IMG/VR virus record: IMGVR_UViG_3300028805_000080
DNA: 48,322 nt
Strand: one strand, 5' to 3'
Origin: a virus
Taxonomy: Duplodnaviria > Heunggongvirae > Uroviricota > Caudoviricetes
The position numbers were made by a program, and so were the translations under genes. The number at the start of each line of letters is the position of its first letter. Within the stretch, counting starts at the first letter, position 1. Under the pieces are notes generated by a model that searched no databases, was not told where the DNA came from, and was given only the letters and a program-made list of their open reading frames with translations. This document shows, piece by piece, positions 229 through 17,461 of the stretch.

Positions 229-777
229 TTATTTATACCATTTTGGCGGATTATTACAGTTTCTAAACATATCTCCGCTATTTATAGTTTCTAAATCTAA
301 ATCCCATTTATTTGCAAAAGATAAATCTAATTTTGAACAGTTAGCAAACATTAAATCAGTTTCTTTACATTTATCGAATTTCCAGTTTGTCAAATCTAAA
401 ATCTTAAGGTTTTCGCATTTATAAAACACTCCATAAAATGACTGTACATTACTAGTATCCCAGTCACTTATATATATTTCTTCAATTGACTTATTACACC
501 AAAATAATCCATGTATGTCAGTAACTTTAGACGTATCCCATTCATTCATATCGACTGACTTTATATTATTAATGTTTTCAAACAAATATGAAAGCTTTGT
601 TATTTTAGATATGTCAATATCATTTAAGTCTAAAACTCCATCATTACTATCTAAAGCACGTTTTGTAATTATTTTTTTAAGCTCATCATAATTCTTTGGA
701 AAATATTCAACTTGCTTTGTTTTAATATTCTTATTAATACGAAGCTTTTCAGTTATAAAGTTATTAATTGATTTCAT
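229..777 (-). CDS. BspA/DUF285-type leucine-rich repeat protein with conserved N-terminal leader
   Basis: Repeats WDTSKVTDIHGLF, WDTSNVQSFYGVF and WKFDKCKETDLMF. N-terminus MKSINNFITEKLRINK. Paralogue of 16991..17461. Confidence 0.8.
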   Translation of the reverse strand: MKSINNFITEKLRINKNIKTKQVEYFPKNYDELKKIITKRALDSNDGVLDLNDIDISKITKLSYLFENINNIKSVDMNEWDTSKVTDIHGLFWCNKSIEEIYISDWDTSNVQSFYGVFYKCENLKILDLTNWKFDKCKETDLMFANCSKLDLSFANKWDLDLETINSGDMFRNCNNPPKWYK

Positions 778-780
778 ATA

Positions 781-1176
781 TTATATCCAAATCCATTTAG
801 TTTCTGATATAGTGGTTATTCTCATATCTTCAAATCCTTGTTTCATATAGTCTTTGATTACTTTATAGACTTCATCACTAGTAAAAGCAAATACAGGCAA
901 AGAATATTTTAAAGTCTTTATAAATCCATCAACAAATATATCTTCTGCTATTTTTACAATAAATATTTTACTATCATTTATATATTCATTTGCAGAAGGT
1001 TTCAATGATTTCATTATACAAATATCTTCAACTTCTATCTCTTTGCCTAATTCTTCTATTATCTTTGTACCAGCTTCAATAAAATCTTGAGCTTCTGTAA
1101 GATAAGTTTCTTGTATCTCTTTATATTTATTATTTTCTGTTACAATTGTTCTATTTACTTTTACTTTAAAATACAT
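781..1176 (-). CDS. DUF4494-like protein (Bacteroidota family)
   Basis: YFKVKV...ETYLTEAQDFIEAGTKIIEE and C-terminal MRITTISETK resemble the duplicated-fold DUF4494 proteins of Bacteroidota, as recalled. Confidence 0.65.
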   Translation of the reverse strand: MYFKVKVNRTIVTENNKYKEIQETYLTEAQDFIEAGTKIIEELGKEIEVEDICIMKSLKPSANEYINDSKIFIVKIAEDIFVDGFIKTLKYSLPVFAFTSDEVYKVIKDYMKQGFEDMRITTISETKWIWI

Positions 1177-1180
1177 AAAG

Positions 1181-1570
1181 CTATATCTTAACTATTTCTA
1201 ATTTTGCATCATCCCATTTATAGCCGGCTTTATTCAATGCATCATAAAATTCTTCACATTTTTCTTCTGATGCTAATTTATATCTTTCTGGTCTTTCTGA
1301 AATAAGGCCCACACCAGTATCTATGCCAACTTCTAGTTTTTTTCTATTATCACAAATATATGTCGCATGATATACTATAGCATTATCATTAGCATTATTT
1401 ACATGAAAATCTTTATTTAATCCTTTATAAATAAAAAGTAAGTTTTCATTAAGTTCAACAATATCTCCATCTTCAGCTTTATCAATAGACCAATTGTCAA
1501 GATCTCTTGCTTTTTTCATTTTTGAATTGACTTTAAGTTTTTCTAATATAAATTCTTTTATTTGTTTCAT
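1181..1570 (-). CDS. Hypothetical protein with conserved N-terminal leader
   Basis: Begins MKQIKEFILEKLKVNSK. The body (DGDIV...LFIYK...YHA...KLASEEK...FYDALNKAGYKWD) resembles a small domain common in Bacteroidota phages. Confidence 0.75.
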   Translation of the reverse strand: MKQIKEFILEKLKVNSKMKKARDLDNWSIDKAEDGDIVELNENLLFIYKGLNKDFHVNNANDNAIVYHATYICDNRKKLEVGIDTGVGLISERPERYKLASEEKCEEFYDALNKAGYKWDDAKLEIVKI

Positions 1571-1608
1571 TATAGTATATCTTCTATATTTAATGATTCT
1601 TCTTGTTA

Positions 1609-2160
1609 TTATCTACCTGTTAATTCTCTATATTTTTTCAATAATTCATCATCTATTTTCCAATATGGCTCCCAAAGCTTATCTCTTTGTTCTTCAAGTT
1701 TAGCAATTTGTGGTTGTATCTTCTTCATTTTGTTTTTTAATGACTCAATTTCATTTGCTAATTTATTGAATTGTTCTCCATATTCTTGTGCCTTTTCTTC
1801 AGCTTCTTTTTCATTACCAGATGAATAAAGTTGTCCTAATTCATCTTCTTGGTCAATTTGAAGTTGCCTATATTGACGATTAGTATCTTTAAGTTCTTGT
1901 TCATATCTCCAGAGTTCATCTTCAAGTTTTTCTTGTTGCTTTACAAGATTTTTTTCTTGTTCTTTTATTTTTTTACGAATCTCAAATTGTTTGTCTGCTT
2001 CTTTATAATAAGCTTCCCATTTAAGTTTTTCAAGTTCAGGATCTGGATCTTTAACCCACATTGTTACAATTTCACCAGTTTCTTCGTCAACAAAATCTTC
2101 ATAATGGCCATTCTTGCTATCCTTTTCAGATTCTTTAATATATTGTATGATTTTTTTCAT
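1609..2160 (-). CDS. Coiled-coil hypothetical protein with partial leader (MKKIIQYIKE)
   Basis: 183-aa ORF with long E/K/Q-rich heptad-like stretches. TATAAATA lies just upstream. Confidence 0.75.
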   Translation of the reverse strand: MKKIIQYIKESEKDSKNGHYEDFVDEETGEIVTMWVKDPDPELEKLKWEAYYKEADKQFEIRKKIKEQEKNLVKQQEKLEDELWRYEQELKDTNRQYRQLQIDQEDELGQLYSSGNEKEAEEKAQEYGEQFNKLANEIESLKNKMKKIQPQIAKLEEQRDKLWEPYWKIDDELLKKYRELTGR

Positions 2161-2173
2161 ATTATATTCTATA

Positions 2174-2181
2174 TATTTATA
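2174..2181 (-). promoter_or_regulatory. TATAAATA, T4-like late promoter candidate
   Basis: Plus strand reads tatttata at 2174-2181, 13 nt upstream of the ATG at 2160. Identical to the T4 late consensus, but the genome is very AT-rich. Confidence 0.4.
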
Positions 2182-2186
2182 TAACT

Positions 2187-3236
2187 TTATATTATATCTT
2201 CTATATTTAATACACCTTCTTGTTGTTTATTGATTAGCATATCTTTTACAATTTGTTCTATTTCTTCAAATAATTCAGGATTGTCTTTCAATATATCTAT
2301 TACATTATTCTTTCCTTGAGCTATTTGAGTATTCTCATAATAGAACCATGAACCAGATTTTCTAATTACATCTAGATTAATTGCTAAATCTATTACTTCT
2401 CCAAACTTGTTTATACCTTTACCATATGTTATTTCAAACTCTGCTTTTCTAAATGGAGGAGCACATTTATTTTTCACAACTTTTACTTTAGTCAAATTAG
2501 CTATTGCTTCATCTCCATCTTTTACTTGTGAAGATTTACGAACATCTAATCTAATAGAAGCATAGAATTTAAGAGCATTTCCTCCAGTTGTTGTCTCTGG
2601 ATTTCCAAACATAACACCAATCTTGTCTCTTAATTGATTAATGAATATACAACAACAATTACTTTTCTTGATTATTCCTACCATTTTTCGTAATGCTTGA
2701 GACATCATTCTCGCTTGAAGACCTACTCTAGCATCGCCAATAGCACCTTCTAATTCTGCTTTTGGAGTCAATGCGGCAACTGAGTCAATAACTAATATTC
2801 CAATCTTTCCTGATGATATTAGCTTAATAGCTATCTCTAAGCAATCTTCACCACAATCTGGTTGAGCAAAGAAAAGCTTATTGACATCTACTCCTAATGA
2901 TTCTGCATAATCTCTATCAAATGCATTCTCTGCATCTATATAAGCAGCTTTAAGACCTATTTTTTGAGCTTCTGCAACAGCATGAATAGCTAATGTTGTC
3001 TTACCACAACTTTCTGGTCCATATATTTCTACAATACGACCTTTAGGATAACCACCAATTCCTAATGCACAATCAAGAGATAATGAACCTGAAGGTATTA
3101 CTTCAATATCCATTACTTTTGAGTCACCAAGTAACATTACTGCTCCTTCACCATATTGTTTCTTTATATCTTTCAATACAGCATCTAATTCATGATCTTG
3201 GCCAAATTCTTGTTCTAAAATATCTTTTTTAGCCAT
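2187..3236 (-). CDS. recA: Recombinase RecA (bacterial type)
   Basis: [21 protein letters not shown] (Walker A), [63 protein letters not shown]. Confidence 0.97.
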
Positions 3237-3664
3237 TAAGGTAATTCTGGTGTCATTTTTTCTATTTTTTGTCTTAATTGATCTATTTGAGGAAGTTTTT
3301 TAAACCATTTTAATTGTTTCCAATCAGATTTTCCTTTATAATTATAACCATCTTTATAAAGGTTATCTTCAGGATCTAATATAATCCAATGAGCTAAATC
3401 ATTTCCACTTATATTATAATATTCATATTTATCTTTATATTTCAAATATATAAAATAATCAACATAATCACATAAGCCATCTATTAAATCTTCTTTACTA
3501 GGATGATCTTTTAATGTATAATCATATCCTTCAGAAGATAATAATTCTATAAATTCTTTATTAGTTGGCAAACATTTTAATATATTAGATAATTCACTTA
3601 TTGGAGGCTTTATCTTTGAATTTATTTTAAGCTTCTCAATTATAAATTTATTTATTTGTTTCAT
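3236..3664 (-). CDS. Hypothetical protein with conserved N-terminal leader
   Basis: Begins [19 protein letters not shown]. Its stop overlaps the recA start (TAATG). Confidence 0.75.
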
Positions 3665-3676
3665 TATTTAAATAAC

Positions 3677-3695
3677 TATTTATAATTAAAAATAA
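3677..3695 (-). promoter_or_regulatory. Candidate phage late promoter TTATTTTTA-AT-TATAAATA
   Basis: Minus strand reads TTATTTTTAATTATAAATA, 12 nt upstream of the ATG at 3664. The motif recurs at five other operon heads. Confidence 0.55.
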
Positions 3696-3744
3696 TTTTT
3701 CTAAATTTAACTATATTAAAATAAGTATATTTTAAAATATTATT

Positions 3745-4023
3745 ATGGCAGTTTTAAGACATATTGAAGAAGAAAACTATATTAGGTTATATGATCCAGA
3801 TGGAAATTATCTTGGTATGACTAATAGTGAATTAGAGTTTAATGATTTTAGATTACAAATAATTGAAGAGAATAAAGAAGGATATTATTTTATTAAAGAC
3901 CATAAAAAAGTATTTATAAAAGCAACTGGTAGAATAGAAAATGGAAATGATAATTATCCATTTAGCTTATATACAAATCAATTAGCTAAAATTTTAGCAG
4001 ATGGAATAAAAAATTTAAATTAA
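3745..4023 (+). CDS. Hypothetical protein
   Basis: 92-aa ORF, first gene of a plus-strand island, with an A-rich translation initiation region. Confidence 0.7.
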   Translation: MAVLRHIEEENYIRLYDPDGNYLGMTNSELEFNDFRLQIIEENKEGYYFIKDHKKVFIKATGRIENGNDNYPFSLYTNQLAKILADGIKNLN

Positions 4024-4039
4024 TAGATAATTGAATATA

Positions 4040-4213
4040 ATGGATATTATCAAAGAAGAAAGAGATGAGAGAATTTTTTGAATTAATCAATGAATATCCT
4101 TGGACTACAGTGTTTTTAGTAATTGGTATAGGATATTTGATTGAAATAATAGGTGATGCCATAGGAACAATTATTCATGGTAAATTTATAACAGAAGAAA
4201 ATAAAAATGACTG
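4040..4213 (+). CDS. Small membrane protein (57 aa), not in the ORF track
   Basis: MDIIKEERDERIFELINEYPWTTVFLVIGIGYLIEIIGDAIGTIIHGKFITEENKND. It fills the gap between genes and overlaps the next start (ATGACTGA). Confidence 0.6.
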
Positions 4214-4407
4214 AAATAGATTATAATATATTCAAAAATTGTAGTAATGAATTATTAGATGCTGCAATATATAATATTCAAGTTGATATAAATCATTGTT
4301 GTAGTCCTTCATATTTACAAGATTTAAACATAATATTAAGAACATTAGAATATATAAAAGAAGCAAATCAATATGGAAAGAGAAGAGATAAAGAAAATAG
4401 TATATGA
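4207..4407 (+). CDS. Hypothetical protein
   Basis: 66-aa ORF in a tightly packed plus-strand run. Confidence 0.6.
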   Translation: MTEIDYNIFKNCSNELLDAAIYNIQVDINHCCSPSYLQDLNIILRTLEYIKEANQYGKRRDKENSI

Positions 4408-4648
4408 TTGTGCAAGAAATAGATTTGGCAATCCTAATGACTTTGATAATTTAATATTAGGTAAATCTTTTGATGGAGAAAACCAATTAATATACCCAGA
4501 AATATGTTTTGATTCATTAGATATGATTGAATTCATAATGGAATTAGAAGAGAATTTTGACATAACTATTGATGATCAGTTTGTAAATAATGAGCTTACA
4601 TTAGGAAAAGTAATAGATTATATTTATGATAGAATCGATAAAGGATGA
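4373..4648 (+). CDS. acpP: Acyl carrier protein
   Basis: DSLDMIEFIMELEENFDITIDD matches the ACP phosphopantetheine attachment motif (DSL) and helix II. Acidic, 91 aa. Confidence 0.85.
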   Translation: MEREEIKKIVYDCARNRFGNPNDFDNLILGKSFDGENQLIYPEICFDSLDMIEFIMELEENFDITIDDQFVNNELTLGKVIDYIYDRIDKG

Positions 4649-4667
4649 ATTAATTGATAATGGATTT

Positions 4668-4784
4668 ATGAAAGAAACATTAAGACAACAATTATCTTAT
4701 CGTATTAAAAAAATATGGTATAAACTATTATTCTTGTTATTTTTATCTAAAATATATATAAAGAAAAAATTCAATGAGTTATAA
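4668..4784 (+). CDS. Small basic/hydrophobic ORF (38 aa) overlapping the endolysin start
   Basis: MKETLRQQLSYRIKKIWYKLLFLLFLSKIYIKKKFNEL. It fills the gap but also contains the late-type motif at 4737-4745. Confidence 0.35.
   Translation: MKETLRQQLSYRIKKIWYKLLFLLFLSKIYIKKKFNEL
4737..4745 (+). promoter_or_regulatory. Candidate late promoter element TTATTTTTA
   Basis: 28 nt upstream of the endolysin ATG at 4774. Confidence 0.4.
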
Positions 4785-5292
4785 TAAGAAATTATATAAA
4801 GGACAAGATGAACCAGCATTCATATATGCAGGATTTAATACTAACTATAATCTTTCTAAAAATTTTACATATAGAGAGATGATACAATCATATACTTCGG
4901 CTAAATATGGAATAAATAATTCTCCTAATGATGAACAATTATTGAACTTGACTGTTCTTTGTCAAAATGTCCTTCAGCCAATAAGAGAAAAATATGGAAA
5001 ATCAATTAAAGTAAATTCTGGGTTTAGATGTAAAGAACTTAATAAAAAAGTTGGAGGCGCGGATAATTCAGATCATCTTTATGGAGCTGCTGCTGATATA
5101 AAAGCAGGAGATGGAAATAATAGAAAGCTTTTTGACTTGATTTTAAATATGGTTCAAAATAATCAAATTAAATGTCGTCAATTAATTTGGGAATATGGAA
5201 CTCATACATCTCCTCAATGGATTCATATATCAATAAATCATAAGTATAATAAAGAAAAGAAAAATCAAGTAGTATATCTATATAATAAGTAA
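4774..5292 (+). CDS. Peptidase M15A family (Peptidase_M15_3) peptidoglycan hydrolase, probable endolysin
   Basis: LSKNFTYREM, CQNVLQPIREKYGKSIKVNSGFRCKELNKKVGG..NSDHLYGAAADI, WIHIS (Zn ligands H, D, H). Confidence 0.88.
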   Translation: MSYNKKLYKGQDEPAFIYAGFNTNYNLSKNFTYREMIQSYTSAKYGINNSPNDEQLLNLTVLCQNVLQPIREKYGKSIKVNSGFRCKELNKKVGGADNSDHLYGAAADIKAGDGNNRKLFDLILNMVQNNQIKCRQLIWEYGTHTSPQWIHISINHKYNKEKKNQVVYLYNK

Positions 5293-5294
5293 TT

Positions 5295-6149
5295 ATGAAA
5301 TCATTAGAAGAGTTTATACAAGATGAATATGATAAGTCAATAGATCAAGGATGCAAAGCTAAATATTATATTGATGAAATAAAAGAATTTTATAATAATG
5401 AAATTCCTGATAATATATTAAAGCTTATTGATAATAATAGATATGAATTCTATATTGATGAATCATTAAAAACTCATGATACTAATAAATTGAAAGATAA
5501 GCTTAAGAAAGAATATGGAGATGATATAGATTTTTTTGATTATAATGGAAATGATAAGAAATCATTTTATATGATATTATCAAATAATCTTAGAATTATA
5601 GATTTTTCTCGTAAAGGTAGTAGATTAGATACTGATTTTGATAACTTAGAAAAATTTGAAAATATATTAAGTTTTTTTAATTATTATGTTTCTTATACTC
5701 AAAAGATAGATAATCAATGGACTTTATTTATTGAACCTCGATACTCTGACAATATAACACAAGAAGTATTTGATAGACATTATTATATATATCATTTTAC
5801 AGATAAAAAATCTGCTAAATCAATTTTAGAAAATGGCCTTAGAATTAAGAAATCAAAATACAGAGAATTTCCTTCAAGAATATTTCTATATATAACTAAT
5901 AAGAAGATAAATGAAGATAAAGAAAATATTTGTAAGTTTATTAGTATTATTTGTAATAGGAGTAATGTATATAATTATGGGATAAGTATATTAAAAATTA
6001 AAAACAATAATAAATTCAATATATACAATGATACTTCTATGAAAGAAAAGGAAGCTGCATTTACTTATGATAATATTCCTAAAGAATTTATTTCTGAAGT
6101 TAATATTAAGATAGATTATAAACAAGATATTTGTAAATATTATGAATAA
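5295..6149 (+). CDS. ADP-ribosyltransferase-fold (Tpt1/DarT-like) protein candidate with a capsid-targeting-like N-terminus
   Basis: C-terminal half YHFTDKKSAKSILENGL...RIFLY...ILKIK...AFTYDNIPKEFI resembles the H-x-T...GL...IP pattern of ART-fold enzymes. N-terminus MKSLEEFIQDE. Confidence 0.5.
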   Translation: MKSLEEFIQDEYDKSIDQGCKAKYYIDEIKEFYNNEIPDNILKLIDNNRYEFYIDESLKTHDTNKLKDKLKKEYGDDIDFFDYNGNDKKSFYMILSNNLRIIDFSRKGSRLDTDFDNLEKFENILSFFNYYVSYTQKIDNQWTLFIEPRYSDNITQEVFDRHYYIYHFTDKKSAKSILENGLRIKKSKYREFPSRIFLYITNKKINEDKENICKFISIICNRSNVYNYGISILKIKNNNKFNIYNDTSMKEKEAAFTYDNIPKEFISEVNIKIDYKQDICKYYE

Positions 6150-6996
6150 AGAACAAGTACATACATTAGTAATACCAGATATACATGGAAGAACATTTTG
6201 GAAAGAAGATATACAAATATTTTCTAAAGATCAATATCCAAATTTAAATATTGTATTTTTAGGAGATTATCTTGATCCTTATGATTTTGAGAAAATATCT
6301 AGATTAGCTGCAATAGAAAATTTTAAAGAAATTATAAATGTGGCAAAAAATGATAATAGAGTACATTTATTAATTGGCAATCATGATATGCATTATTGGT
6401 ATGATACTAGATATAAATGTAGAGTAGATAATAAAAATTATGAAAAGATTAAAAATCTATTTTTAGAAAATTTTTCATTATTCAATGTTGCTTATGATGA
6501 AGAGATAAATGGAGAAAAATATCTTTATACTCATGCTGGTGTTACAGCATATTGGCTTATGCATTTAAAATTTGTTGGAAATAATGGTATAAGATGGAAT
6601 AAAGAAGAATATATAAATAGTTTAGGAGAAAAAAAGAAAAAAGTATCTGATGAACAATTGCCATTTTGTGAGATGCTAGCAAATATGACTCCTACTGCTG
6701 AAGAACTAAACAAAATGAAATCAAATTTTCAAGGTGAAGCTAATCTTTGGTATGCGTCATGGTATAGAGGTGGTGAAAATGATTGTGGTAGTTGTATATG
6801 GGCAGATTTTAATGAATGGTCTTATGAAAATTCTAATATAGATAATATTTGGCAAATATTTGGTCATTCATTAGCTGCTGGTAGTTTTGATGAAGGAATT
6901 ATAGATTATAAAAAGAAAATTGCTATGGTAGACTCTCGTTGCTCTTGGGTAATTACTAATAATCAAGATATATGTAAATTAAAAGATTATAAATAA
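6142..6996 (+). CDS. Calcineurin-like metallophosphoesterase
   Basis: All five motifs are present: IPDIHG, FLGDYLD, LIGNHD, YTHAG, QIFGHS. Confidence 0.92.
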   Translation: MNKEQVHTLVIPDIHGRTFWKEDIQIFSKDQYPNLNIVFLGDYLDPYDFEKISRLAAIENFKEIINVAKNDNRVHLLIGNHDMHYWYDTRYKCRVDNKNYEKIKNLFLENFSLFNVAYDEEINGEKYLYTHAGVTAYWLMHLKFVGNNGIRWNKEEYINSLGEKKKKVSDEQLPFCEMLANMTPTAEELNKMKSNFQGEANLWYASWYRGGENDCGSCIWADFNEWSYENSNIDNIWQIFGHSLAAGSFDEGIIDYKKKIAMVDSRCSWVITNNQDICKLKDYK

Positions 6997-6997
6997 T

Positions 6998-7117: not shown

Positions 7118-7120
7118 GCT

Positions 7121-7466: not shown

Positions 7467-7469
7467 AAT

Positions 7470-7504
7470 AAAGCTTAGAAAAATTGAATTTTTCTAGGCT
7501 TTTT
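7470..7504 (+). terminator. Intrinsic terminator overlapping the next promoter
   Basis: AAAGCTTAGAAAAAT-TGA-ATTTTTCTAGGCTTT: 15-bp stem with one G:U pair, followed by a T run. Confidence 0.65.
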
Positions 7505-10218: not shown

Positions 10219-10716
10219 ATGATTAATAAGATTCAAACATTTTATGTAGATTATCCAACAGCTAAGCTTTTAAAAAAGTTTGGTTTTGGTGTTCCATGTG
10301 AGTTATTCTATGAATGGTTTCCTCATTTTTGTGGTGAGCCACTTTCTTTTGATGATGAATGTGAACTTAAATCAGAAGGACGAGGAGATGAGATTACATA
10401 TAAGCCATTAATTCAAAAGATGTATAATACTAATACATCATTAGGATTCAAGAAAAATTGTTCATGTCCTTCATTAGATATTGTTCGTGAATGGTTATTA
10501 GTTAATTTTAATATTCATATTTCTCCTAATCCATTTCCAAAAGATAATCATATGTATTGGGTATGTAATATTTGGAAAATACATGGAGATGACTATATGG
10601 ACTTACTTAAGACTATTATGTATAAAAGAAATAATCATCAAGCATTAGCCGATGGCATAGAATGGGCAATTAATTATTTAATTAGAAATAAAAAGAATGA
10701 AACAAGAAAACATTAA
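10219..10716 (+). CDS. Hypothetical protein (family common in Bacteroidota phages)
   Basis: YVDYPTAKLLKKFGF...CPSLDIVREWLLVNFNIHI resembles a recurring Bacteroides/Prevotella phage protein, as recalled. Confidence 0.7.
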   Translation: MINKIQTFYVDYPTAKLLKKFGFGVPCELFYEWFPHFCGEPLSFDDECELKSEGRGDEITYKPLIQKMYNTNTSLGFKKNCSCPSLDIVREWLLVNFNIHISPNPFPKDNHMYWVCNIWKIHGDDYMDLLKTIMYKRNNHQALADGIEWAINYLIRNKKNETRKH

Positions 10717-10990
10717 AGAAGTACTTAAAATTATTAGGAAATCTTTCATTATCAATAAATATCTAGAAAATTATCTTAAAGATGATATTGAACAGATAAT
10801 AGAAGACTATGATTTAAATCCAGATTATAATGAAAATGAAATGCCCACTATAATTGGATATATACTTAATAAGCCTGATAATATTGTTGTGTCTATTAAT
10901 TTCTTTGATGAAGGAAGTGAAAATGGAATAGGACTAGAGACCAGAGATATAAATATTAATGATTTCTTAAATTGGCTTAAAGATAATTAA
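10697..10990 (+). CDS. Hypothetical protein
   Basis: 97-aa ORF overlapping the previous gene end. Confidence 0.7.
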   Translation: MKQENIKEVLKIIRKSFIINKYLENYLKDDIEQIIEDYDLNPDYNENEMPTIIGYILNKPDNIVVSINFFDEGSENGIGLETRDININDFLNWLKDN

Positions 10991-10992
10991 AT

Positions 10993-11469
10993 ATGAAAAA
11001 AAGATTACCAAAAGATTTGCCTAAGATTGGAGAATATTATCATTTTTTTGATGATGGCAAATGTTCAATAGGTCGTCATTATATTTGCCGTATAGAAAGA
11101 ATTATTACTCCTGAAGAGTCAAAGAATATTAAAGTGACAGTACCTAGATGGGATTGGGAGAAAAATGAAAACTATTTTGAAGAGATAACACTTTGGAATA
11201 GATATCATGAGCAAATTCGAACACATGATGTATATGATAAAAATGGAACTGACTACTTAATTGAAGCTTCTTGTCCAACTTATGATAAGAATAATCTTTG
11301 GTTTATTAGACAAAAAGGTGGTGGATGGTTTTCAATTGATATTCAGAATTGCTGGCAAGGAGGAGAACTAGATTTTACTGGAAAGATTTTTGAAAGTATA
11401 GTCAATGAAATAATTGAAGATGGAGGAGATCCTTCTGGATATTATGAAGCAACTTATGATAAACATTAA
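10993..11469 (+). CDS. Hypothetical protein
   Basis: 158-aa ORF (LPKIGEYYHFFDDGK...GRHYIC). Confidence 0.75.
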   Translation: MKKRLPKDLPKIGEYYHFFDDGKCSIGRHYICRIERIITPEESKNIKVTVPRWDWEKNENYFEEITLWNRYHEQIRTHDVYDKNGTDYLIEASCPTYDKNNLWFIRQKGGGWFSIDIQNCWQGGELDFTGKIFESIVNEIIEDGGDPSGYYEATYDKH

Positions 11470-11481
11470 ATATTAGAAATT

Positions 11482-11928
11482 ATGGGATATAAGATTAATT
11501 CTCCTTGGACAAAGATTCGAGAAAAAGACATCAATAGACTTAATGAGATTATTGATGATGAATATTGTAATGAAATGGAGATTGGTAGAAAACTTCATAT
11601 TCTAGAAACTTTTGAAAAGAAACTTAATGAAGAAATCAATAGATTTAAATTTGATATTGTCATTAAGTTTATGAAAGCTAATAAATGGACATGGTTCTTG
11701 TATAAAAATGGTAAATCCTCTTATGAAGTTCCAACTAAAGAAGATATTATAGATTCTATTAAAGATAATTTCAAGCATGGATTATTTGAGATTATTGAAT
11801 TGAATCATAATAGATATGGTAGTAGTGGTGGTGGAATTGTATTTGAAATGGGTATGTTAGGAGAATATCCATCTGATGATAATTGCTATATAGATATTTA
11901 TTTTGATATTGCCCATTATAGTAAGTAG
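11482..11928 (+). CDS. Hypothetical protein
   Basis: 148-aa ORF ending in TAG. Confidence 0.75.
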   Translation: MGYKINSPWTKIREKDINRLNEIIDDEYCNEMEIGRKLHILETFEKKLNEEINRFKFDIVIKFMKANKWTWFLYKNGKSSYEVPTKEDIIDSIKDNFKHGLFEIIELNHNRYGSSGGGIVFEMGMLGEYPSDDNCYIDIYFDIAHYSK

Positions 11929-12033
11929 AAATTGTAATTGATTTCTACTTATTACTATTTTATAATTATGAATTTTATAATAAAAGTAATTAATAATTTT
12001 ATATTAAAGTATAAATCCTATAAAATAAAGCAT

Positions 12034-12777
12034 ATGGTATTTAACTTAGAAGAATTATTGCAACTATTTCCAAAGCATGAAAGAATTGATATTAATAAGA
12101 TTAAAGAATTATTAGATAGTCTTTATGATAATTGTACTCATTATCAAGATATTTATAACTATTTCTTAGAATATATTAAAACATGTTTTCCTGGATCTAA
12201 TCGTGAAAAATATTCATATGAATCTCCAGAGTATAATGAATATTTTGATTATATTTATGATGTTGAAAAAGATCATATGACTTTTAATAGTTGGATTAAA
12301 TATGTAGAGTCAAATTTCTTATCTAAGTTTGGACAACGTCGTACTTATGATGAAGCTTGTCTATTAGCTGCAGATAAATGGTGTGAAATGATGTTTAAGT
12401 TCCATTTACAAGATAATGGAGCTATTAATGAAGATCATGGAGGTGGATTTTGGGCATGTGCATTAGCAACAGTTATGAAAAATGACTCTATGAAAGAAAT
12501 AACTGAAGAGATGGTCAAAGCTACTCATGATAATCTTTATAAATATTATAAGAATAGATGTTGGTATGAATGTAAAGATAAAGATGATTCTTGGTCAGGT
12601 TATGTAAATCTTTATGTTGATTATCATCCAAATCGACCATTATATGATATTCTTAAAGATAGTGGAATTCCAGAAAAACATATTGATAGTCTTTGCCCAT
12701 GGAAGACTGGAATAGATATTGATGAAACAGATAATGCTGTAGTTGTGAAAGGATATCAAAAATGTAATTATTTATAA
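12034..12777 (+). CDS. Hypothetical protein (track start at 11938 is a TTG; the ATG at 12034 is more likely)
   Basis: MVFNLEELLQLF... The extra N-terminal residues from the TTG look like non-coding AT-rich sequence. Confidence 0.7.
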   Translation: MVFNLEELLQLFPKHERIDINKIKELLDSLYDNCTHYQDIYNYFLEYIKTCFPGSNREKYSYESPEYNEYFDYIYDVEKDHMTFNSWIKYVESNFLSKFGQRRTYDEACLLAADKWCEMMFKFHLQDNGAINEDHGGGFWACALATVMKNDSMKEITEEMVKATHDNLYKYYKNRCWYECKDKDDSWSGYVNLYVDYHPNRPLYDILKDSGIPEKHIDSLCPWKTGIDIDETDNAVVVKGYQKCNYL

Positions 12778-13068
12778 ATGAAATTTGATTTAAATAAACA
12801 TTTGAAAAATAATAATATATGGAAATGCTGTTCTAATTGCTATTGGTTAGGTAATGATTGCTCAGTATATAAAGAACCATATGTATATTATTATTGTCAA
12901 ATATGGAATCCAAAAGAAGAATGCTTTAAAGATGAAATGAAAAACTCAGATGAGATTTGCTTTGATCCATGGAGTGGAACAGCATGTGAAGAATTTCATT
13001 GGCAACCATCAGCAGATTTATGTGATAGTGATTGGGAATTATATAGAATAGATTTATATTATACATAA
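12778..13068 (+). CDS. Cys/Trp-rich hypothetical protein
   Basis: CCSNC...C...C...C pattern; abuts the upstream stop. Confidence 0.65.
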   Translation: MKFDLNKHLKNNNIWKCCSNCYWLGNDCSVYKEPYVYYYCQIWNPKEECFKDEMKNSDEICFDPWSGTACEEFHWQPSADLCDSDWELYRIDLYYT

Positions 13069-13077
13069 GATTAAAAT

Positions 13078-13950
13078 ATGTTATCATTAGAAAAGAAAAT
13101 AGAGTTAGCTACATGGCTTTGTGAATATAATCATTGTATTGCCTTAACCGGATCTATGATGCTTTATCTTCGTTGGATCAAGAAACCAGGCAATAGTCTT
13201 GAAAATTTCTATTTAGGACGAGAACCTCAAGATTTGGATTTTATAGTAAATACTGAAGAATGTTTTGAAGATGAAATGAGTCTTACTCTTCCACCATTTA
13301 TTGAAGGACTAGAATCACAAGACTCAAAATTTGATAGTTATCCTATACTTAAAAGATTCTATTTAGATGGAACTAAAGTAGAATTTATTGAAATGCCACA
13401 TTTCCGTTATACTTGGGAAACTATACCTCATTTTGGAGATAAAGGATTTAAGTTTGAAGATATAAAAGAATCTATTGAAAGACTTAAACGAGGTCAAGGA
13501 GATATTCGGCTTGCTTTGATAACTGATCTTTATGCAGCTAAAGCAAGATATATTGAAGAAGATGAAAATAAAGAATATATTGAAAAAACTAAGAATGACT
13601 TATTTCTTTTAAATCCTATTCTTAAAGAAGTATATTTTGATGAATATCTTACAATTATTGAATCTTATCTTAGTAATTCTTGGTATGATTCACATAAATA
13701 TGTAGATGATGGTCGTAAGCTATCAGAATCTATGATTAAGAAACTTATTGTTGATAATGATCCTAATAAAGAAAAATGGTTTGAATACATAACTAAGATT
13801 AATCATGATTATATTCAACAATTCAAGAATTGGTATAAAAATACTAAAGATAGATTTTATGATTCTTATGGATATTCTTATCAAATGAAACAGACAATAA
13901 ATAAGCTATTATATGCATTTGAAATACCTTTTGAACTCAATAAAATATAA
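13078..13950 (+). CDS. Pol-beta-superfamily nucleotidyltransferase-like protein
   Basis: IALTGSMMLYL...REPQDLDFIV matches the hG[GS]...DhDh nucleotidyltransferase signature. A later KVEF strand may supply the third carboxylate. Confidence 0.6.
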   Translation: MLSLEKKIELATWLCEYNHCIALTGSMMLYLRWIKKPGNSLENFYLGREPQDLDFIVNTEECFEDEMSLTLPPFIEGLESQDSKFDSYPILKRFYLDGTKVEFIEMPHFRYTWETIPHFGDKGFKFEDIKESIERLKRGQGDIRLALITDLYAAKARYIEEDENKEYIEKTKNDLFLLNPILKEVYFDEYLTIIESYLSNSWYDSHKYVDDGRKLSESMIKKLIVDNDPNKEKWFEYITKINHDYIQQFKNWYKNTKDRFYDSYGYSYQMKQTINKLLYAFEIPFELNKI

Positions 13951-14596
13951 GATATGGAACTATTTTTATTATAAGTCTCCTATTTATATATGTCTTAACC
14001 CATTTAAGATATTTGAATTCTGGTGGGAAGCAAGAAAAGATTTTTTAAAACCAGAGATAGTAAAGCATAAACTTAAAAGAGGAGACTCTTTAGGATCTGA
14101 TTATTTTTATCTTAATACTAATGTTAATAATAAATGGTTACATATTAATTTTGAACCATGTGGATGGAAAAGCAAATTTGAAGATGTAAGATTTGAATCA
14201 GTTCCATATATTCTTATTGTTTGGCTTAATAAAGTATGGGTATGGGGTTTAGAAGCTCCACTTTATGAACAAAAAACACCTAATGAATATCATTATAAGC
14301 ATTATTGGGTAAAAGATAATATGCTTTATTGGGAAAGTATTCTTAGATATAATATACTTTATCATAAGAATATTATAAAAACTTATCAGAATAATATATG
14401 GACCAGGACTTATCATGTAGAGAATCTTAAAGATGGAGGATATCATAAGCTTGAAATTCAAGATACTATTTTCCAAGCATTGACACCTAAAAGTAAAAGA
14501 TTAATAAAGGAACATTATGATTTCTTGAATAGAGTTCCTCCTCCACATAAAAAACATAATAAAGAAAATGAAGGATCCACAGAAAATAAAGAATAG
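13913..14596 (+). CDS. Hypothetical protein
   Basis: 227-aa W/Y-rich ORF overlapping its neighbours. Confidence 0.7.
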   Translation: MHLKYLLNSIKYKIWNYFYYKSPIYICLNPFKIFEFWWEARKDFLKPEIVKHKLKRGDSLGSDYFYLNTNVNNKWLHINFEPCGWKSKFEDVRFESVPYILIVWLNKVWVWGLEAPLYEQKTPNEYHYKHYWVKDNMLYWESILRYNILYHKNIIKTYQNNIWTRTYHVENLKDGGYHKLEIQDTIFQALTPKSKRLIKEHYDFLNRVPPPHKKHNKENEGSTENKE

Positions 14597-14966
14597 TTTT
14601 TTAGATCTTATTAAAAAAGAATATAATGCTCAAGATATTCTTTTTGATGATGTAAAGAAAATAACAGAAAAAAACCTTAAGTCATTTCCTTTATATAGAT
14701 TTAGTGAATATAAGATTTTCAATATAAAATATATGAAATATATTATAGGATTTGATAATTGTTATAATATGATTTTATTTTATTCTGATGGAAGTTTTAT
14801 TGAAGGTTTTATACAAACAGATATTATAAGCTTAATTATACAAGATAGTGAAAAGATAAACTTATTTGAAAAAAGACAAAAAGAACTTAATAAGTTTATA
14901 GAATGGCTCAAAAAAGAATTTGATAAAAGAAATATATGTAATCATCATAATGGAATTAACAGTTAA
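14568..14966 (+). CDS. Hypothetical protein
   Basis: 132-aa ORF. Confidence 0.65.
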   Translation: MKDPQKIKNSFLDLIKKEYNAQDILFDDVKKITEKNLKSFPLYRFSEYKIFNIKYMKYIIGFDNCYNMILFYSDGSFIEGFIQTDIISLIIQDSEKINLFEKRQKELNKFIEWLKKEFDKRNICNHHNGINS

Positions 14967-15426
14967 TGTAATGAAGTTTGACACTCCAAATAAAGCTGGT
15001 AGAATATATTCTAAAGAAGTTATGGAGAAAGCTGTCAAACAATTTAATGAAAATAATAATAAATTTGGTATATTAGGTACTTCAGAATGTTCAGATCCAA
15101 CAACAATATCTTTAGGAGAAATATCACATAAAGTCAAAAATATGAGAATTGAAGAAGATCATCTTAAATGTGATATAGAAGTATTGAATACACCAAAAGG
15201 AAATACATTAAATGCTTTACTTGAAAGTGGAGCTAAATTAGCTATAGCTCCAAGAATGAATATAGATATTCAAGAAGAAAAAGATGAGGAAGGAAATGTA
15301 ATTCTTGATGAAAATGGTAAGCCAAAAACTTATATAGCAGATGCAGATATAATAAGTGTAAATGTAATACCAAATGAATATCGGACTTTTGAAGATAATA
15401 CAATAATAATACCTGATAAAACTTGA
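14950..15426 (+). CDS. T4 gp21-like prohead protease homologue, apparently lacking the catalytic His and Ser
   Basis: FDTPNKAGRIYSKEVMEKAVKQF, ISHKVKNMRIEEDHLKCDIEVLNTPKGNTLNALLESG align with the gp21 family. GELxHP is replaced by GILGTSE and GVSSRG by AIAPRM. Likely start is the ATG at 14950. Confidence 0.7.
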   Translation: MELTVNVMKFDTPNKAGRIYSKEVMEKAVKQFNENNNKFGILGTSECSDPTTISLGEISHKVKNMRIEEDHLKCDIEVLNTPKGNTLNALLESGAKLAIAPRMNIDIQEEKDEEGNVILDENGKPKTYIADADIISVNVIPNEYRTFEDNTIIIPDKT

Positions 15427-15432
15427 ATTTTA

Positions 15433-15894
15433 TCAGGTATTTTCTTTATGACATATTCTTGGAGCACATCCTTCTACATTAAATGATATGATATTTTTAT
15501 GATCTGTTACTAAATAAATACCATGTTTATTTCTATCTTTATCTATAAACATATCATCAGTATCAATTACAATTTCTGGATTATTTTTTAGATAATCATA
15601 AACATATGCATTATCATCATTACAAGGAATATATTTATCTATTATATGTTTAGGTATTTTATGTTCTTTCATTATATTTATTCCCCACGCAGGACAATAA
15701 AAACTAACTTCTTTAACATTATTATCATTTATCCATTCTTTAAGAATATTATAGATTTCATCATAATATTTCTTATAAAACTTTTTATAATATTCTACTC
15801 CCCAAGTTTCTATAATTTCATCAATAAGATAATTAATTTTACTATTCTTATTAATATGTAATTTCTCTATTATATAATTATTTAAATTTTTCAT
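15433..15894 (-). CDS. Hypothetical protein with conserved N-terminal leader
   Basis: Begins MKNLNNYIIEKLHINKNSK. Confidence 0.75.
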   Translation of the reverse strand: MKNLNNYIIEKLHINKNSKINYLIDEIIETWGVEYYKKFYKKYYDEIYNILKEWINDNNVKEVSFYCPAWGINIMKEHKIPKHIIDKYIPCNDDNAYVYDYLKNNPEIVIDTDDMFIDKDRNKHGIYLVTDHKNIISFNVEGCAPRICHKENT

Positions 15895-15900
15895 ATAATA

Positions 15901-16248
15901 TCAATCAACTAATTTAACTGTCTCTGTTCGTGAATATGGATCTTTACCTAAATTACGAATAATTGTAAGTATTTTTTCTTTTTTAAAAAACTTAATTATA
16001 TTAGATTCATCAAAATAAACTACAAGCTTATCATATTCATTAAATAATTGCCAATAGAAATTTCCTCCAGATTCTTTTTTAGCTATTCTATAAATCAATT
16101 CAGTTTCTTGTTGATCAATTAATTTTAATTTAATTGGTAATTGTATTTCTTCTTTAAAATTATCTAAATCAAATTTAAAAAAATCATTTACTTTAGTATC
16201 TTTATTTATTTTAAGTTTCTCTTGTATAAATTGGTTGATTTGTTTCAT
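15901..16248 (-). CDS. Hypothetical protein with conserved N-terminal leader
   Basis: Begins MKQINQFIQEKLKINKDTK. Confidence 0.75.
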   Translation of the reverse strand: MKQINQFIQEKLKINKDTKVNDFFKFDLDNFKEEIQLPIKLKLIDQQETELIYRIAKKESGGNFYWQLFNEYDKLVVYFDESNIIKFFKKEKILTIIRNLGKDPYSRTETVKLVD

Positions 16249-16562
16249 GTCAATTTGATAAATGGATTATCTTTTAAACTATCAATAATTAAGTTTAGTT
16301 CATCACATATATTTTTAAAGTCTATTATATCATTTATATCTAAGCTAAACCATTCTCCAACTTCTCTTTTATTATGAAATCTCATATGTAATAGTTTTTC
16401 TAATCTAAATGGATATTCACATTGATAATAAGAACGTATGAATAATTCTGTTGAGTTTCCTGTTTGAAGTTTTCTAACTCTCTCTTCAATATCTTTCTTC
16501 TTTGTTACTCCTATCTTAAAAGTATCATTAGATGGATCACAAATCAAATATACATATCCCAT
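16245..16562 (-). CDS. T5orf172/MUG113-like GIY-YIG superfamily nuclease
   Basis: GYVYLI...FKIGVT...ERVRKLQTGNS...LEKLLHMRF...GEWF. The start at 16562 is 1 nt after the upstream stop (the track uses 16592). Confidence 0.8.
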   Translation of the reverse strand: MGYVYLICDPSNDTFKIGVTKKKDIEERVRKLQTGNSTELFIRSYYQCEYPFRLEKLLHMRFHNKREVGEWFSLDINDIIDFKNICDELNLIIDSLKDNPFIKLT

Positions 16563-16563
16563 A

Positions 16564-16998
16564 TTACCATAAGAATTTCTTATATTTATCACTATTTAGC
16601 TTTACTTTCATAACAAGTACAAAAATAAATAACTCTTGTTCTGTATAATATCCTCTTTTGATTATTTCATCTTTAAATACATTTGCTGCTTCTTCCCATT
16701 CTAAATCCATAGCAGCAATCCATCGTTTTATCATTTTCTCTCTATTCTTGATTGTTGCTACTAATCTTTCTGGCTTAGATCCTTTTTTATAATAATCTTC
16801 CATTTTCTCCATATTTGTCCATTCACTTTGTGGAGTCTTGAAGGACATATCATTTTTTAAGCCAGTAGGAATATCATTTCTTGTATATTTGCTTAACAAA
16901 TCTTTAATATCTTCATCAGAATATTCTTTTTTCTTATTAGATTTCATGTCTTTATTAACATGAAGTTTCTCTATTATAAAATCTTTAAAATTATACAT
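16564..16998 (-). CDS. Hypothetical protein with conserved N-terminal leader (start revised)
   Basis: The ATG at 16998 gives MYNFKDFIIEKLHVNKDMK and overlaps the stop of 16991..17461. The track start at 17067 adds 23 implausible residues. Confidence 0.75.
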   Translation of the reverse strand: MYNFKDFIIEKLHVNKDMKSNKKKEYSDEDIKDLLSKYTRNDIPTGLKNDMSFKTPQSEWTNMEKMEDYYKKGSKPERLVATIKNREKMIKRWIAAMDLEWEEAANVFKDEIIKRGYYTEQELFIFVLVMKVKLNSDKYKKFLW

Positions 16999-17461
16999 GA
17001 TACCATTTCGGTGGATTTTTTTCTGCTGGACATTTCTTGAATATTGTCTTATTAAGATTTTTGACATTACTTACATCCCAAGAAGATATATCACCATTTT
17101 TTCCAGAAAAACTAGATCTAGCAAACATTGAAGACATATTTGTTACTTTACTAACATTCCATTTTGATAAGTCTCCATCAAATTTGCTATCATCAAACAT
17201 CAATAGCATATTAGTAACATTACTTACGTCCCACTCAGATATATCTCCATTAAAATCAGAATTAAGAAATAAACCAGACATATTAGTTATTTTTGATGTA
17301 TCAATATCATTCAAATCAGCTTCATTTCCACGTTCTTTAATAAGTTTATTTAATAAATCTATTAATTCATCTTTATCTTTAGGATGATAATGATATTTGT
17401 CAACTTTTATATCTTTATTTATCTTAAGTTTTTCTAATATAAATTGATTGATTTTCTTCAT
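16991..17461 (-). CDS. BspA/DUF285-type leucine-rich repeat protein with conserved N-terminal leader
   Basis: DLNDIDTSKITNMSGLF, ISEWDVSNVTNMLLMF, LSKWNVSKVTNMSSMF, ISSWDVSNV; C-terminal NPPKWY shared with 229..777. Confidence 0.85.
   Translation of the reverse strand: MKKINQFILEKLKINKDIKVDKYHYHPKDKDELIDLLNKLIKERGNEADLNDIDTSKITNMSGLFLNSDFNGDISEWDVSNVTNMLLMFDDSKFDGDLSKWNVSKVTNMSSMFARSSFSGKNGDISSWDVSNVKNLNKTIFKKCPAEKNPPKWYHV

What the first reader, a model, noticed from the sequence alone, without database searches (positions are those of the whole stretch)
229..17461. Shared N-terminal leader on seven proteins: candidate capsid-targeting/injection signal system
Seen in sequence: seven minus-strand ORFs begin with nearly the same 19 residues. 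They are 229..777 MKSINNFITEKLRINKNIK, 1181..1570 MKQIKEFILEKLKVNSKMK, 3236..3664 [19 protein letters not shown], 15433..15894 MKNLNNYIIEKLHINKNSK, 15901..16248 MKQINQFIQEKLKINKDTK, 16564..16998 MYNFKDFIIEKLHVNKDMK and 16991..17461 MKKINQFILEKLKINKDIK. After the leader the bodies are unrelated, except for the two DUF285 paralogues. Two more proteins carry only the first 10 residues (1609..2160 MKKIIQYIKE; 5295..6149 MKSLEEFIQDE). The seven fall in two minus-strand clusters, each headed by the late-type motif. Established: T4 internal proteins IPII/IPIII carry a 10-residue capsid-targeting sequence (MKTYQEFIAE), removed by prohead protease gp21 after Glu, and are injected with the DNA. Inference: MKxIxx[FY]IxE is a capsid-targeting sequence with cleavage after E10. 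The extra KLxINKxxK is not part of the T4 signal. It would become the new N-terminus and may be a second address for DNA/core binding, ejection order or intracellular sorting. The leader would then be a portable tag that lets the phage load any cargo, such as anti-defence or host-takeover proteins, into virions.
Basis: partly seen in the sequence, partly recalled or inferred. Interest (0 to 1): 0.9.

Follow-up and report, generated by a model that had tools for sequence, protein, structure and literature searches.

The report
Two-part capsid-loading-like leader in megaphage
Seven small genes of an uncultivated 321-kb gut or rumen phage start with the same 20-residue tag: its first half looks like phage T4's "pack me into the head" signal, and its second half also sits between domains of fused proteins, so it is probably a cut site that stays with each cargo.

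Summary
Seven minus-strand ORFs start with MKxINxFIxEKLxINKxxK. There are 7 strict matches against 0.01 expected by chance, all at a start Met. Conservation is in the peptide, not the DNA.

The tag is lineage-wide:
- 66 long-leader and about 40 short-leader genes in six related jumbo-phage contigs.
- 550 protein clusters among 1.84 billion proteins; 144 of the top 150 have the core at residue 7.
- Cargo is mostly small ORFans, plus a DUF285 expansion.

AlphaFold models the tag as a detached helix in front of a confident DUF285 domain.

New here: the leader has two parts. Residues 1-10 match the T4 capsid-targeting sequence at the positions T4 genetics marks for targeting (4, 7) and processing (8, 10). 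The block I-x-E-K-L-x-I-N-K-x-x-K also occurs internally, at junctions of multi-unit proteins whose units also exist as separate full-leader genes (up to 96% identical). The "extension" therefore travels with the I-x-E site and its cargo.

Packaging and cleavage are not shown, and no active protease was found. The neighbouring gp21-like gene lacks the catalytic residues and sits there by chance.

The scan has seen T4-like tags before, 33 kb upstream in this genome and in other phages. Verdict: new variant of a known kind.

The parts
16991..17461 (-). Long-leader gene, DUF285 cargo (156 aa); first gene of cluster B
   Evidence: Leader at the start Met. DUF285 E=4.8e-28. AlphaFold: body pLDDT 95-98; leader is an isolated helix at residues 4-17 with pLDDT about 50-55; hinge at 18-20.
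16564..16998 (-). Long-leader gene (144 aa from the leader Met), ORFan cargo
   Evidence: The public gene call is also 144 aa. No Pfam or PHROG family.
15901..16248 (-). Long-leader gene (115 aa), ORFan cargo
   Evidence: Only 4 close homologues among 5.8 billion proteins.
15433..15894 (-). Long-leader gene (153 aa), ORFan cargo; last gene of cluster B
3236..3664 (-). Long-leader gene (142 aa), ORFan cargo; first gene of cluster A
1181..1570 (-). Long-leader gene (129 aa); cargo shared with two related phages
   Evidence: The cargo clusters with L002 and L003 proteins that also carry the leader.
229..777 (-). Long-leader gene, DUF285 cargo (182 aa)
   Evidence: DUF285 E=2.2e-19.
1609..2160 (-). 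Short-class leader (ten residues ending I-x-E, followed by Ser) on a 183-aa, highly charged, coiled-coil-like protein
   Evidence: Only weak coiled-coil-type hits.
5295..6149 (+). Doubtful short-leader protein (Asp at position 10, then Glu), on the other strand directly after the endolysin gene
   Evidence: No family hit. Not retrieved by the leader profile at a useful score.
17479..17487 (-). TTATTTTTA promoter-like motif 18-26 nt upstream of cluster B
   Evidence: The same motif plus TATAA heads the endolysin gene, the lipoprotein/C1-peptidase pair and two structural-gene blocks.
3687..3695 (-). TTATTTTTA promoter-like motif 23-31 nt upstream of cluster A
16245..16592 (-). T5orf172/MUG113 (GIY-YIG-like) gene inside cluster B, without a leader
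   Evidence: Pfam MUG113 2.7e-14 and T5orf172 8.1e-13. All of cluster B (15433-17461) is missing from the otherwise syntenic region of distant relatives, so it is an insertion.
14950..15426 (+). gp21-like (Peptidase_S77) pseudo-protease; a neighbour, probably not part of the system
   Evidence: Pfam S77 27.0 bits, equal to the cut-off. hhalign to T4 gp21 gives probability 83.6%; the family profile hits PDB 5jbl at E=0.0035. The His85 motif is deleted in this copy and no Ser lies at the Ser140 region in any member. Adjacency to leader genes is not conserved.

Best explanation
The seven genes carry a two-part N-terminal leader used across a lineage of uncultivated jumbo or megaphages of gut and rumen Bacteroidota.

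Part T (residues 1-10, M-K-x-[LI]-[NK]-x-[FYI]-I-x-E) works like the T4 capsid-targeting sequence. It would bind the assembling prohead core and end in a Glu-specific (I-x-E) processing site.

Part J (residues 8-20, I-x-E-K-L-x-[IV]-N-K-x-x-K-[IV]) overlaps part T at I-x-E. It is a self-contained junction module attached to the front of each cargo domain.

Proposed sequence of events:
1. Late co-expression with the neck and structural genes.
2. Loading into the prohead through part T.
3. Cleavage after Glu10, and after the equivalent Glu at internal junctions of multi-unit proteins.
4. Release of cargo units that each begin with the Lys-rich KLxINKxxK tail, which then leave with the DNA.

Shown here:
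- The motif, its N-terminal restriction and its modular anatomy.
- Its portability (fusion and fission of cargo units).
- Its detachment from the cargo fold.
- Its genomic association with head-completion operons.

Inferred only: binding to the core, cleavage, the identity of the protease, packaging and injection.
For: 1. Match to T4. The T4 record gives MKTYQEFIAE for IPII and IPIII. The leader shares M1, K2, F7, I8 and E10.
2. T4 genetics maps targeting to CTS residues 4 and 7 and processing to 8 and 10 (PMC9026906). Among 144 database leaders, position 4 is L/I in 140, position 7 is Y/F/I in 144, I8 is present in 141 and E10 in 144.
3. N-terminal restriction. A profile built from the seven window leaders alone finds about 80 hits in relatives, nearly all with Met at model position 1. 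The exhaustive search finds 550 clusters at E<=0.001, and 144 of the top 150 have the core at residue 7.
4. Sharp module boundary. Information content falls to background after residue 20. There are 34 cargo families among 48 proteins.
5. Selection on the peptide. Synonymous codons differ. Codon identity is 0.61 within genomes and 0.56 between them, while identity of residues 11-20 is 0.63 versus 0.43.
6. The leader is a low-confidence isolated helix plus hinge in front of a DUF285 domain with pLDDT 95-98.
7. A short class (ten residues, then S/N/A/G and similar, as in T4) coexists with the long class in the same genomes.
8. Internal copies occur in 14 of 158 proteins scanned. They keep [IL]-x-E-K-L-x-I-N-K-x-x-K and lose the M-K-x-L-N-x-[FY] half. 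This is what is expected if positions 8 and 10 are a processing site and positions 1-7 are an N-terminal address.
9. Fusion and fission. Unit 2 of P0033 is 96% identical to the free-standing P0181, which has a full leader. Unit 1 of P0028 is homologous to unit 2 of P0064. Three further second units have stand-alone relatives: P0070 (89% identity), P0151 (66%) and the more distant P0125 (30%).
10. Tandem duplications of the 8-12-residue unit centred on E-K occur.
11. Context. In relative G003 the gp14-like (Hc2) and gp13-like (Ad2) neck genes are each followed on the same strand, 3-20 nt away, by runs of leader genes. In the window both clusters share a promoter-like motif with the endolysin gene and structural blocks: 6 of 14 copies sit 15-50 nt upstream of a same-strand start, more than any same-composition permutation.
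Against: - No experiment or proteome shows packaging or cleavage.
- No active gp21-type protease was found. The window's S77 homologue lacks both catalytic residues.
- No S77, S78 or ClpP family and no T4-type gp23 were detected in the three held relatives, which are 10-68% complete. This lineage is not T4-like in its capsid gene.
- Only 48 of the 321 kb of this genome could be read.
- The cargo is acidic (median pI 5.2), unlike the basic T4 internal proteins.
- About 16% of the genes of relative G002 (my estimate from 39 leader genes in 193 kb) and most genes of G003 carry a leader. That is far more than T4 packages.
- The short class shows that the presumed protease would not need K-L after Glu, so the invariant K11-L12 remains unexplained.
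Confidence: 0.5

Rival explanations
1. The leader is an uncleaved N-terminal amphipathic helix that sends the proteins somewhere other than the capsid, or hands them to a phage chaperone or unfoldase. Possible destinations are the membrane, a replication or assembly compartment, homo-oligomers, or the phage's own ClpX, AAA or DnaK machinery.
For: AlphaFold predicts a helix at residues 4-17. The hydrophobic positions 4, 7, 8, 12 and 14 are flanked by Lys. The phage encodes ClpX and an AAA ATPase close by. An earlier scan note reports a DnaK-Hsp20-DnaJ cassette in the same genome (not checked here). The large number of tagged genes is easier to accept for a cytoplasmic address than for a capsid one.
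Against: Internal junction copies keep only the I-x-E-K-L... half and drop most of the helix's N-terminal hydrophobic positions. The invariant residues are polar (E10, K11), which is unusual for a purely amphipathic targeting helix. The short class ends exactly at I-x-E, as in T4. The arrays sit in head-completion operons.
Confidence: 0.2
2. The I-x-E-K-L-x-I-N-K block is a cleavage or maturation site for a phage protease that acts in the cytoplasm, for example the papain-family C1 peptidase at 20992-21624. The system would then be a polyprotein-style processing scheme unrelated to capsid loading.
For: Multi-unit proteins carry the block at every junction, and the units also exist as separate genes. 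A C1 peptidase is conserved in the window and in distant relatives. No prohead protease was identified.
Against: This does not explain why the N-terminal copies also keep a conserved M-K-x-L-N-x-[FY] half matching the T4 targeting positions. Most tagged proteins are single units with nothing to be separated from except the 10-residue stub. No link between the C1 peptidase and the arrays was shown.
Confidence: 0.15
3. The leader is a recognition sequence for a dedicated modifying enzyme (RiPP-like logic: one enzyme, many tagged substrates), as the scan proposed for a different shared tag in phage RB43.
For: The extension is genome-specific without DNA homogenisation, which suggests co-evolution with one partner encoded in each genome. 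There is a precedent note, e1-127136.
Against: No candidate enzyme lies inside or beside the arrays in the window, G002 or G003. The neighbours are neck genes, a dNMP kinase, an endolysin-like gene, RecA and a homing-endonuclease-like gene. The cargo consists of folded domains of 80-300 aa, not short peptides. A co-evolving partner could equally be a scaffold protein or a protease.
Confidence: 0.07
4. The shared start has no signal function. It would be a remnant of common descent, or of recombination at a short conserved sequence that merely helps gene-cassette exchange.
For: The clusters are insertions in variable regions and contain a GIY-YIG-like gene. A 60-nt conserved stretch could serve as a recombination site.
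Against: Conservation is at the amino-acid level with free synonymous change. E10, K11 and L12 are invariant across 144 divergent representatives. The boundary at residue 20 is sharp. Internal copies are retained.
Confidence: 0.05

Closest known systems
Capsid-targeting sequence (CTS) of phage T4 internal proteins IPI, IPII, IPIII and Alt, removed by prohead protease gp21 (Mullaney and Black 1996, as reviewed in PMC9026906 and PMC3012670)
   Same: N-terminal 10-residue M-K-x-x-x-x-F-I-x-E pattern. Conservation is concentrated at positions 4, 7, 8 and 10. It sits on unrelated, fast-evolving small proteins in variable loci near homing-endonuclease-type genes. A short class is followed by small or polar residues, as in T4.
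   Different: A further invariant K-L-x-[IV]-N-K-x-x-K block is fused to the I-x-E site and is also used internally. There are tens of tagged genes per genome rather than about five. The cargo is acidic rather than basic. The host phages have no T4-type gp23 and no active gp21 homologue was found. Nothing has been tested experimentally.
Propeptides of ejection and head proteins of giant phages phiKZ, 201phi2-1 and SPN3US, cut at (S/A/G)-x-E by a gp21-related protease (PMC5694885)
   Same: Glu-specific processing of many packaged proteins in jumbo phages. Several cleavage motifs can occur within one propeptide. A diverged paralogue of the prohead protease exists in those genomes, as here.
   Different: Those propeptides are mostly long (over 100 residues) and are not one shared 20-residue tag. 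The motif there is A/S/G-x-E rather than I-x-E-K-L.
Viral polyprotein processing at conserved junction motifs (general principle, from my own knowledge)
   Same: Multi-unit proteins with the same short motif at each junction, whose units also occur as separate genes.
   Different: Most leader proteins here are single units. Cleavage is inferred and no protease is assigned.
N-terminal motif on the capsid and scaffold proteins of Staphylococcus phage 80alpha that mimics ribosomal protein L27 and is cut by the host protease Prp (from my own knowledge, not checked here)
   Same: A short conserved N-terminal Lys/Leu-rich stretch shared by otherwise unrelated virion proteins and removed by a protease.
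   Different: The sequence is different (K-L-N-L-Q-F-F-A type), the protease is the host's, the hosts are Firmicutes, and only the main head proteins carry it rather than dozens of accessory proteins.

Membership tests
T4-type capsid-targeting sequence (CTS) | Located at the extreme N-terminus of the precursor | tested here: met
   7 of 7 in the window. 144 of 150 database representatives have the core at residue 7.
T4-type capsid-targeting sequence (CTS) | About ten residues of the form M-K-x-x-x-x-F-I-x-E, with determinants at positions 4 and 7 (targeting) and 8 and 10 (processing) | tested here: met
   T4 sequences read from the record, the genetics taken from PMC9026906, and conservation at those positions.
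T4-type capsid-targeting sequence (CTS) | Removed by a gp21-family (Peptidase_S77) prohead protease after the Glu of (L/I)-x-E | not testable with these tools
   No proteomic data are available. The only S77 relative seen lacks the catalytic His and Ser. None was found in the held fragments of relatives. The rest of the 321-kb genome is unreadable.
T4-type capsid-targeting sequence (CTS) | Directs the protein into the prohead, and the protein is injected with the DNA | not testable with these tools
   Only circumstantial evidence: the arrays lie in neck-gene operons and share a promoter-like motif with late genes.
T4-type capsid-targeting sequence (CTS) | Portable: the same tag on unrelated cargo in hypervariable loci | tested here: met
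   34 cargo families among 48 proteins. Fusion and fission of tagged units. Cluster B is an insertion into a syntenic backbone.
T4-type capsid-targeting sequence (CTS) | The tag ends at the cleavage site, with unrelated mature protein following directly | tested here: not met
   This holds for the short class only. In the seven window proteins ten more conserved residues follow Glu10, with K11 and L12 invariant.
Peptidase_S77 (T4 gp21) for ORF 14950-15426 | Sequence homology to the family | tested here: met
   Pfam 27.0 bits at the 27-bit cut-off. hhalign probability 83.6%. PDB 5jbl E=0.0035. T4 gp21 finds the family's distant members by phmmer at 1.9e-5.
Peptidase_S77 (T4 gp21) for ORF 14950-15426 | Catalytic His (T4 His85, motif G-E-L-N-H-P) | tested here: not met
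   Deleted in the window's copy. Kept in distant members (G-D-I-D-H-P) and in P0011 (G-E-M-N-H-P).
Peptidase_S77 (T4 gp21) for ORF 14950-15426 | Catalytic Ser (T4 Ser140, motif G-V-S-S-R-G) | tested here: not met
   The aligned stretch reads A-P-[RK]-M followed by variable non-Ser residues in all 14 members. The alignment in this region is weak.
DUF285 (PF03382) for 229-777 and 16991-17461 | Match to the Pfam model above its cut-off | tested here: met
   69.8 and 97.7 bits against a cut-off of 25. 23 of 150 leader-bearing representatives also carry DUF285.

The most novel reading that the evidence does not exclude
The leader is a two-stage address. The first seven to ten residues load the protein into the prohead. 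The conserved K-L-x-I-N-K-x-x-K tail, exposed on every cargo unit by cleavage after Glu (including units cut out of capsid-loaded polyproteins), is a second signal that acts after cleavage. It could couple acidic cargo to the DNA for ordered ejection, or set the cargo's fate in the infected cell. Its genome-specific sequence would reflect co-evolution with a phage-encoded partner.
Probability: 0.2. Interest if true: 0.8.

Novelty: new variant of a known kind. Interest (0 to 1): 0.6.

Why it matters
If the reading holds, the virion-packaged and probably injected protein set of a whole group of uncultivated gut and rumen megaphages could be read from sequence: tens of genes per genome and at least 550 protein clusters. 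That would give a ranked list of candidate early-acting effectors, including a large DUF285 repeat family with no assigned role in phages. The two-part anatomy also yields testable predictions about how T4-style capsid loading has been extended: a cut site with a conserved P' side, polyprotein cargo, and a tail left on the mature protein. It could also supply a longer, modular packaging tag for engineering. If the reading fails, the motif is still a widespread, sharply defined signal of unknown purpose on hundreds of phage protein families.

Tried and rejected
- Whole genome: none is held. The DNA of the 321-kb source contig could not be fetched. The 435-kb and 148-kb IMG/VR relatives and the 474-kb ENA relative could not be searched as whole records.
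- Cultured phages: no nucleotide match for the window. No tblastn match for the 30-residue leader even at E<=10, although the low-complexity filter may hide it. No phage with virion proteomics could therefore be used.
- Promoter or RNA element, or recent DNA duplication, as the cause of the shared start: rejected.
- Functional link between the gp21-like pseudo-protease and the leader cluster through adjacency: rejected, because distant relatives have the same backbone without the cluster.
- Complex prediction of pseudo-protease with leader: no verdict, score 0.24 against a mark of 0.32. Not used as evidence either way.
- Head module of relative G002: PHROG scans of ten large ORFs found only a neck protein and a baseplate wedge protein among structural genes, no capsid, portal or protease. 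Family searches for Gp23, S77, S78 and ClpP found nothing in G001-G003.
- Size or charge as the difference between long-class and short-class cargo: no clear difference.
- N-degron idea (the exposed Lys11 as a destabilising residue): weakened. ClpS is present in 4 of 5 rumen or gut Bacteroidales genomes, but the Leu/Phe-transferase needed for an N-terminal Lys is absent in all 5. In the control set, which includes Bacteroides thetaiotaomicron, that genome matched neither family.
- Fold of the two-unit protein P0033: the junction has low confidence directly before a confident DUF285 unit, but unit 1 is poorly modelled, so this is only weakly informative.
- Literature: no paper joins capsid targeting with megaphages, Lak phages or Jug phages.

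Full report
**Observation.** The seven minus-strand ORFs exist as described, and each begins with about 20 shared residues. The strict core pattern occurs seven times in all six reading frames, always six residues after the Met that opens an ORF and never internally. Two hundred triplet shuffles give a mean of 0.01 matches. Public gene calls on the 321-kb source contig use the same starts. At the DNA level the similarity covers only the 19-20 codons. Synonymous positions vary and the upstream regions do not align. This rules out a promoter, an RNA element or a recent duplication as the cause. The cargo parts are unrelated apart from the two DUF285 proteins.

**A lineage-wide signal.** A degenerate DNA pattern for the leader, start codon included, found 13 loci in six IMG/VR viral contigs of up to 435 kb.
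- One 29.5-kb fragment (G003) has 13 core matches on one strand, against none for the reversed-pattern control. By a looser rule it has 19 leader genes.
- A profile built only from the seven window leaders retrieves about 80 hits in these relatives, almost all with Met at model position 1.
- An exhaustive profile search of 1.84 billion representative proteins gave 550 clusters at E<=0.001. Of the top 150, 144 have the core exactly at residue 7, with E10, K11 and L12 invariant.
- Twenty-three of the 150 carry DUF285, one is a NUDIX protein, and about 125 have no Pfam family.
- Information content stays high to residue 20 and then falls to background. Forty-eight leader proteins fall into 34 unrelated cargo families.
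- AlphaFold models the DUF285 body at pLDDT 95-98. The leader is an isolated, low-confidence helix (residues 4-17) with a hinge at 18-20. It is therefore not part of a shared folded domain.

**Likeness to T4.** The T4 record confirms that IPII and IPIII start with MKTYQEFIAE and that IPI is cut after I-T-E at residue 19. The leader shares M1, K2, F7, I8 and E10. According to the review of Mullaney and Black's work, targeting depends mainly on CTS residues 4 and 7 and processing on residues 8 and 10 (PMC9026906). These are among the best conserved of the first ten positions here. The same genomes also hold a short class: ten residues ending in I-x-E, followed directly by S, N, A, G and similar residues, as in T4. 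The window's 1609-2160 belongs to this class. ORF 5295-6149 is doubtful because it has Asp at position 10.

**The new point: a two-part leader.**
- Fourteen of 158 proteins scanned (the top 150 representatives plus eight cluster members) carry further copies inside the protein, at positions about 110-160. One protein (P0103) has three units.
- These internal copies keep [IL]-x-E-K-L-x-I-N-K-x-x-K but not the M-K-x-L-N-x-[FY] half.
- The units behind internal copies also exist as free-standing genes with a full leader. Unit 2 of P0033 is 96% identical to P0181. Unit 1 of P0028 is homologous to unit 2 of P0064. Three more such pairs were found.
- Tandem duplications of an 8-12-residue unit centred on E-K occur. 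In one protein the two halves are separated by six residues.
- This is what is expected if I-x-E is a processing site that also serves at junctions of multi-unit precursors. It is hard to explain if the leader were only an uncleaved N-terminal helix.
- The extension is more genome-specific than the first half: identity is 0.63 within genomes and 0.43 between them, against 0.62 and 0.54 for residues 1-10. Synonymous-codon identity hardly differs (0.61 versus 0.56). This points to selection to match something encoded in each genome rather than to gene conversion.

**Context.**
- In relative G003, the gp14-like and gp13-like neck genes are each followed on the same strand, 3-20 nt away, by runs of leader genes.
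- In the window, both clusters are headed by TTATTTTTA(N0-2)TATAA. The same motif heads the endolysin gene, a lipoprotein/C1-peptidase pair and two structural-gene blocks. Six of its 14 copies sit 15-50 nt upstream of a same-strand start, more than for any permutation of the same 9-mer. Overall the motif is not enriched (14 observed against 10.5 expected).
- Cluster B (15433-17461), with a T5orf172/MUG113 gene, is absent from the otherwise syntenic region of distant relatives, so it is an insertion.
- The phage's RecA is closest to Bacteroidota RecA (60-68% identity, all 80 best loci), including rumen Bacteroidales.

**What is missing.**
- No active maturation protease was found.
- The gp21-like ORF next to cluster B is a real but remote S77 relative. 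It lacks the His85 motif, and the whole family lacks a Ser at the Ser140 region. Its adjacency to leader genes is not conserved. Diverged protease paralogues are known in giant phages (PMC5694885).
- No Gp23, S77, S78 or ClpP family was detected in the held, incomplete relatives.
- The cargo is acidic.
- The invariant K11-L12 is unexplained, because the short class shows that a cut after Glu would not need it.

**Verdict.** The best reading, at about 50%, is a T4-like capsid-loading and processing leader extended by a junction module that stays on each released cargo. The main rivals are an uncleaved localisation or chaperone tag, cytoplasmic polyprotein-style processing, and a tag for a dedicated enzyme. 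The scan had already noted T4-like ten-residue tags 33 kb upstream in this genome and in several other phages. What is added here is the two-part anatomy, the internal junction copies with fusion and fission, the global count, and the demotion of the neighbouring pseudo-protease. I found no publication describing this.

Noticed in passing
window 14950-15426 (+); family alignment A2: A small (about 160 aa) gp21-like family found in megaphage contigs of 112-474 kb. It has an invariant Ser-His-Lys triplet and an invariant acidic insert (D-I-Q-E-E-K-D-E-E-G-N...) but no Ser at the canonical nucleophile position. The canonical His is kept in some members and lost in the window's subgroup. Its function is unknown.
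   Followed up: partly
window 3687-3695, 4737-4745, 17479-17487, 22054-22062, 27548-27556, 36804-36812: TTATTTTTA followed by TATAA, 24-40 nt upstream of six operon-first start codons (leader clusters, endolysin, lipoprotein/C1 peptidase, two structural blocks). The downstream part resembles the T4 late-promoter box TATAAATA (from my own knowledge).
   Followed up: partly
L005:1187-2653 (+): A 488-aa protein with an N-terminal ligase-like domain (K-x-D-G motif), then an internal copy of the junction module, then a 126-aa C-terminal domain. This is the one clear case of the module behind an enzyme-like domain.
   Followed up: partly
window 1609-2160 (-): A short-leader protein that is a 183-aa, highly charged, coiled-coil-like protein lying between RecA and a long-leader gene. 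Its composition recalls scaffold or core proteins.
   Followed up: no
window 20992-21624 (-) and 21637-22014 (-): A papain-family (C1) peptidase without a signal peptide, next to a small lipoprotein-like gene. The pair is also present in distant relatives (L033, L034) beside ClpX. Its role is unknown.
   Followed up: no
G002 60451-61290 (L023:451-1290, -): A protein whose start carries a tandem duplication of the 8-residue core (I-N-E-K-L-N-V twice). Similar 12-residue duplications occur in P0031, P0044, P0078 and P0093.
   Followed up: partly
window 2187-3236 (-): A bacterial-type RecA sits inside leader cluster A, with no leader of its own. Its 80 nearest bacterial relatives are all Bacteroidota.
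   Followed up: partly
G002 and G003 (L014-L015, L020-L029): The DUF285 repeat family with a conserved cap (Y-x-Y-x-P-K...D-E-L) directly behind the leader is the commonest cargo, with several paralogues per genome in five of six phages.
   Followed up: partly
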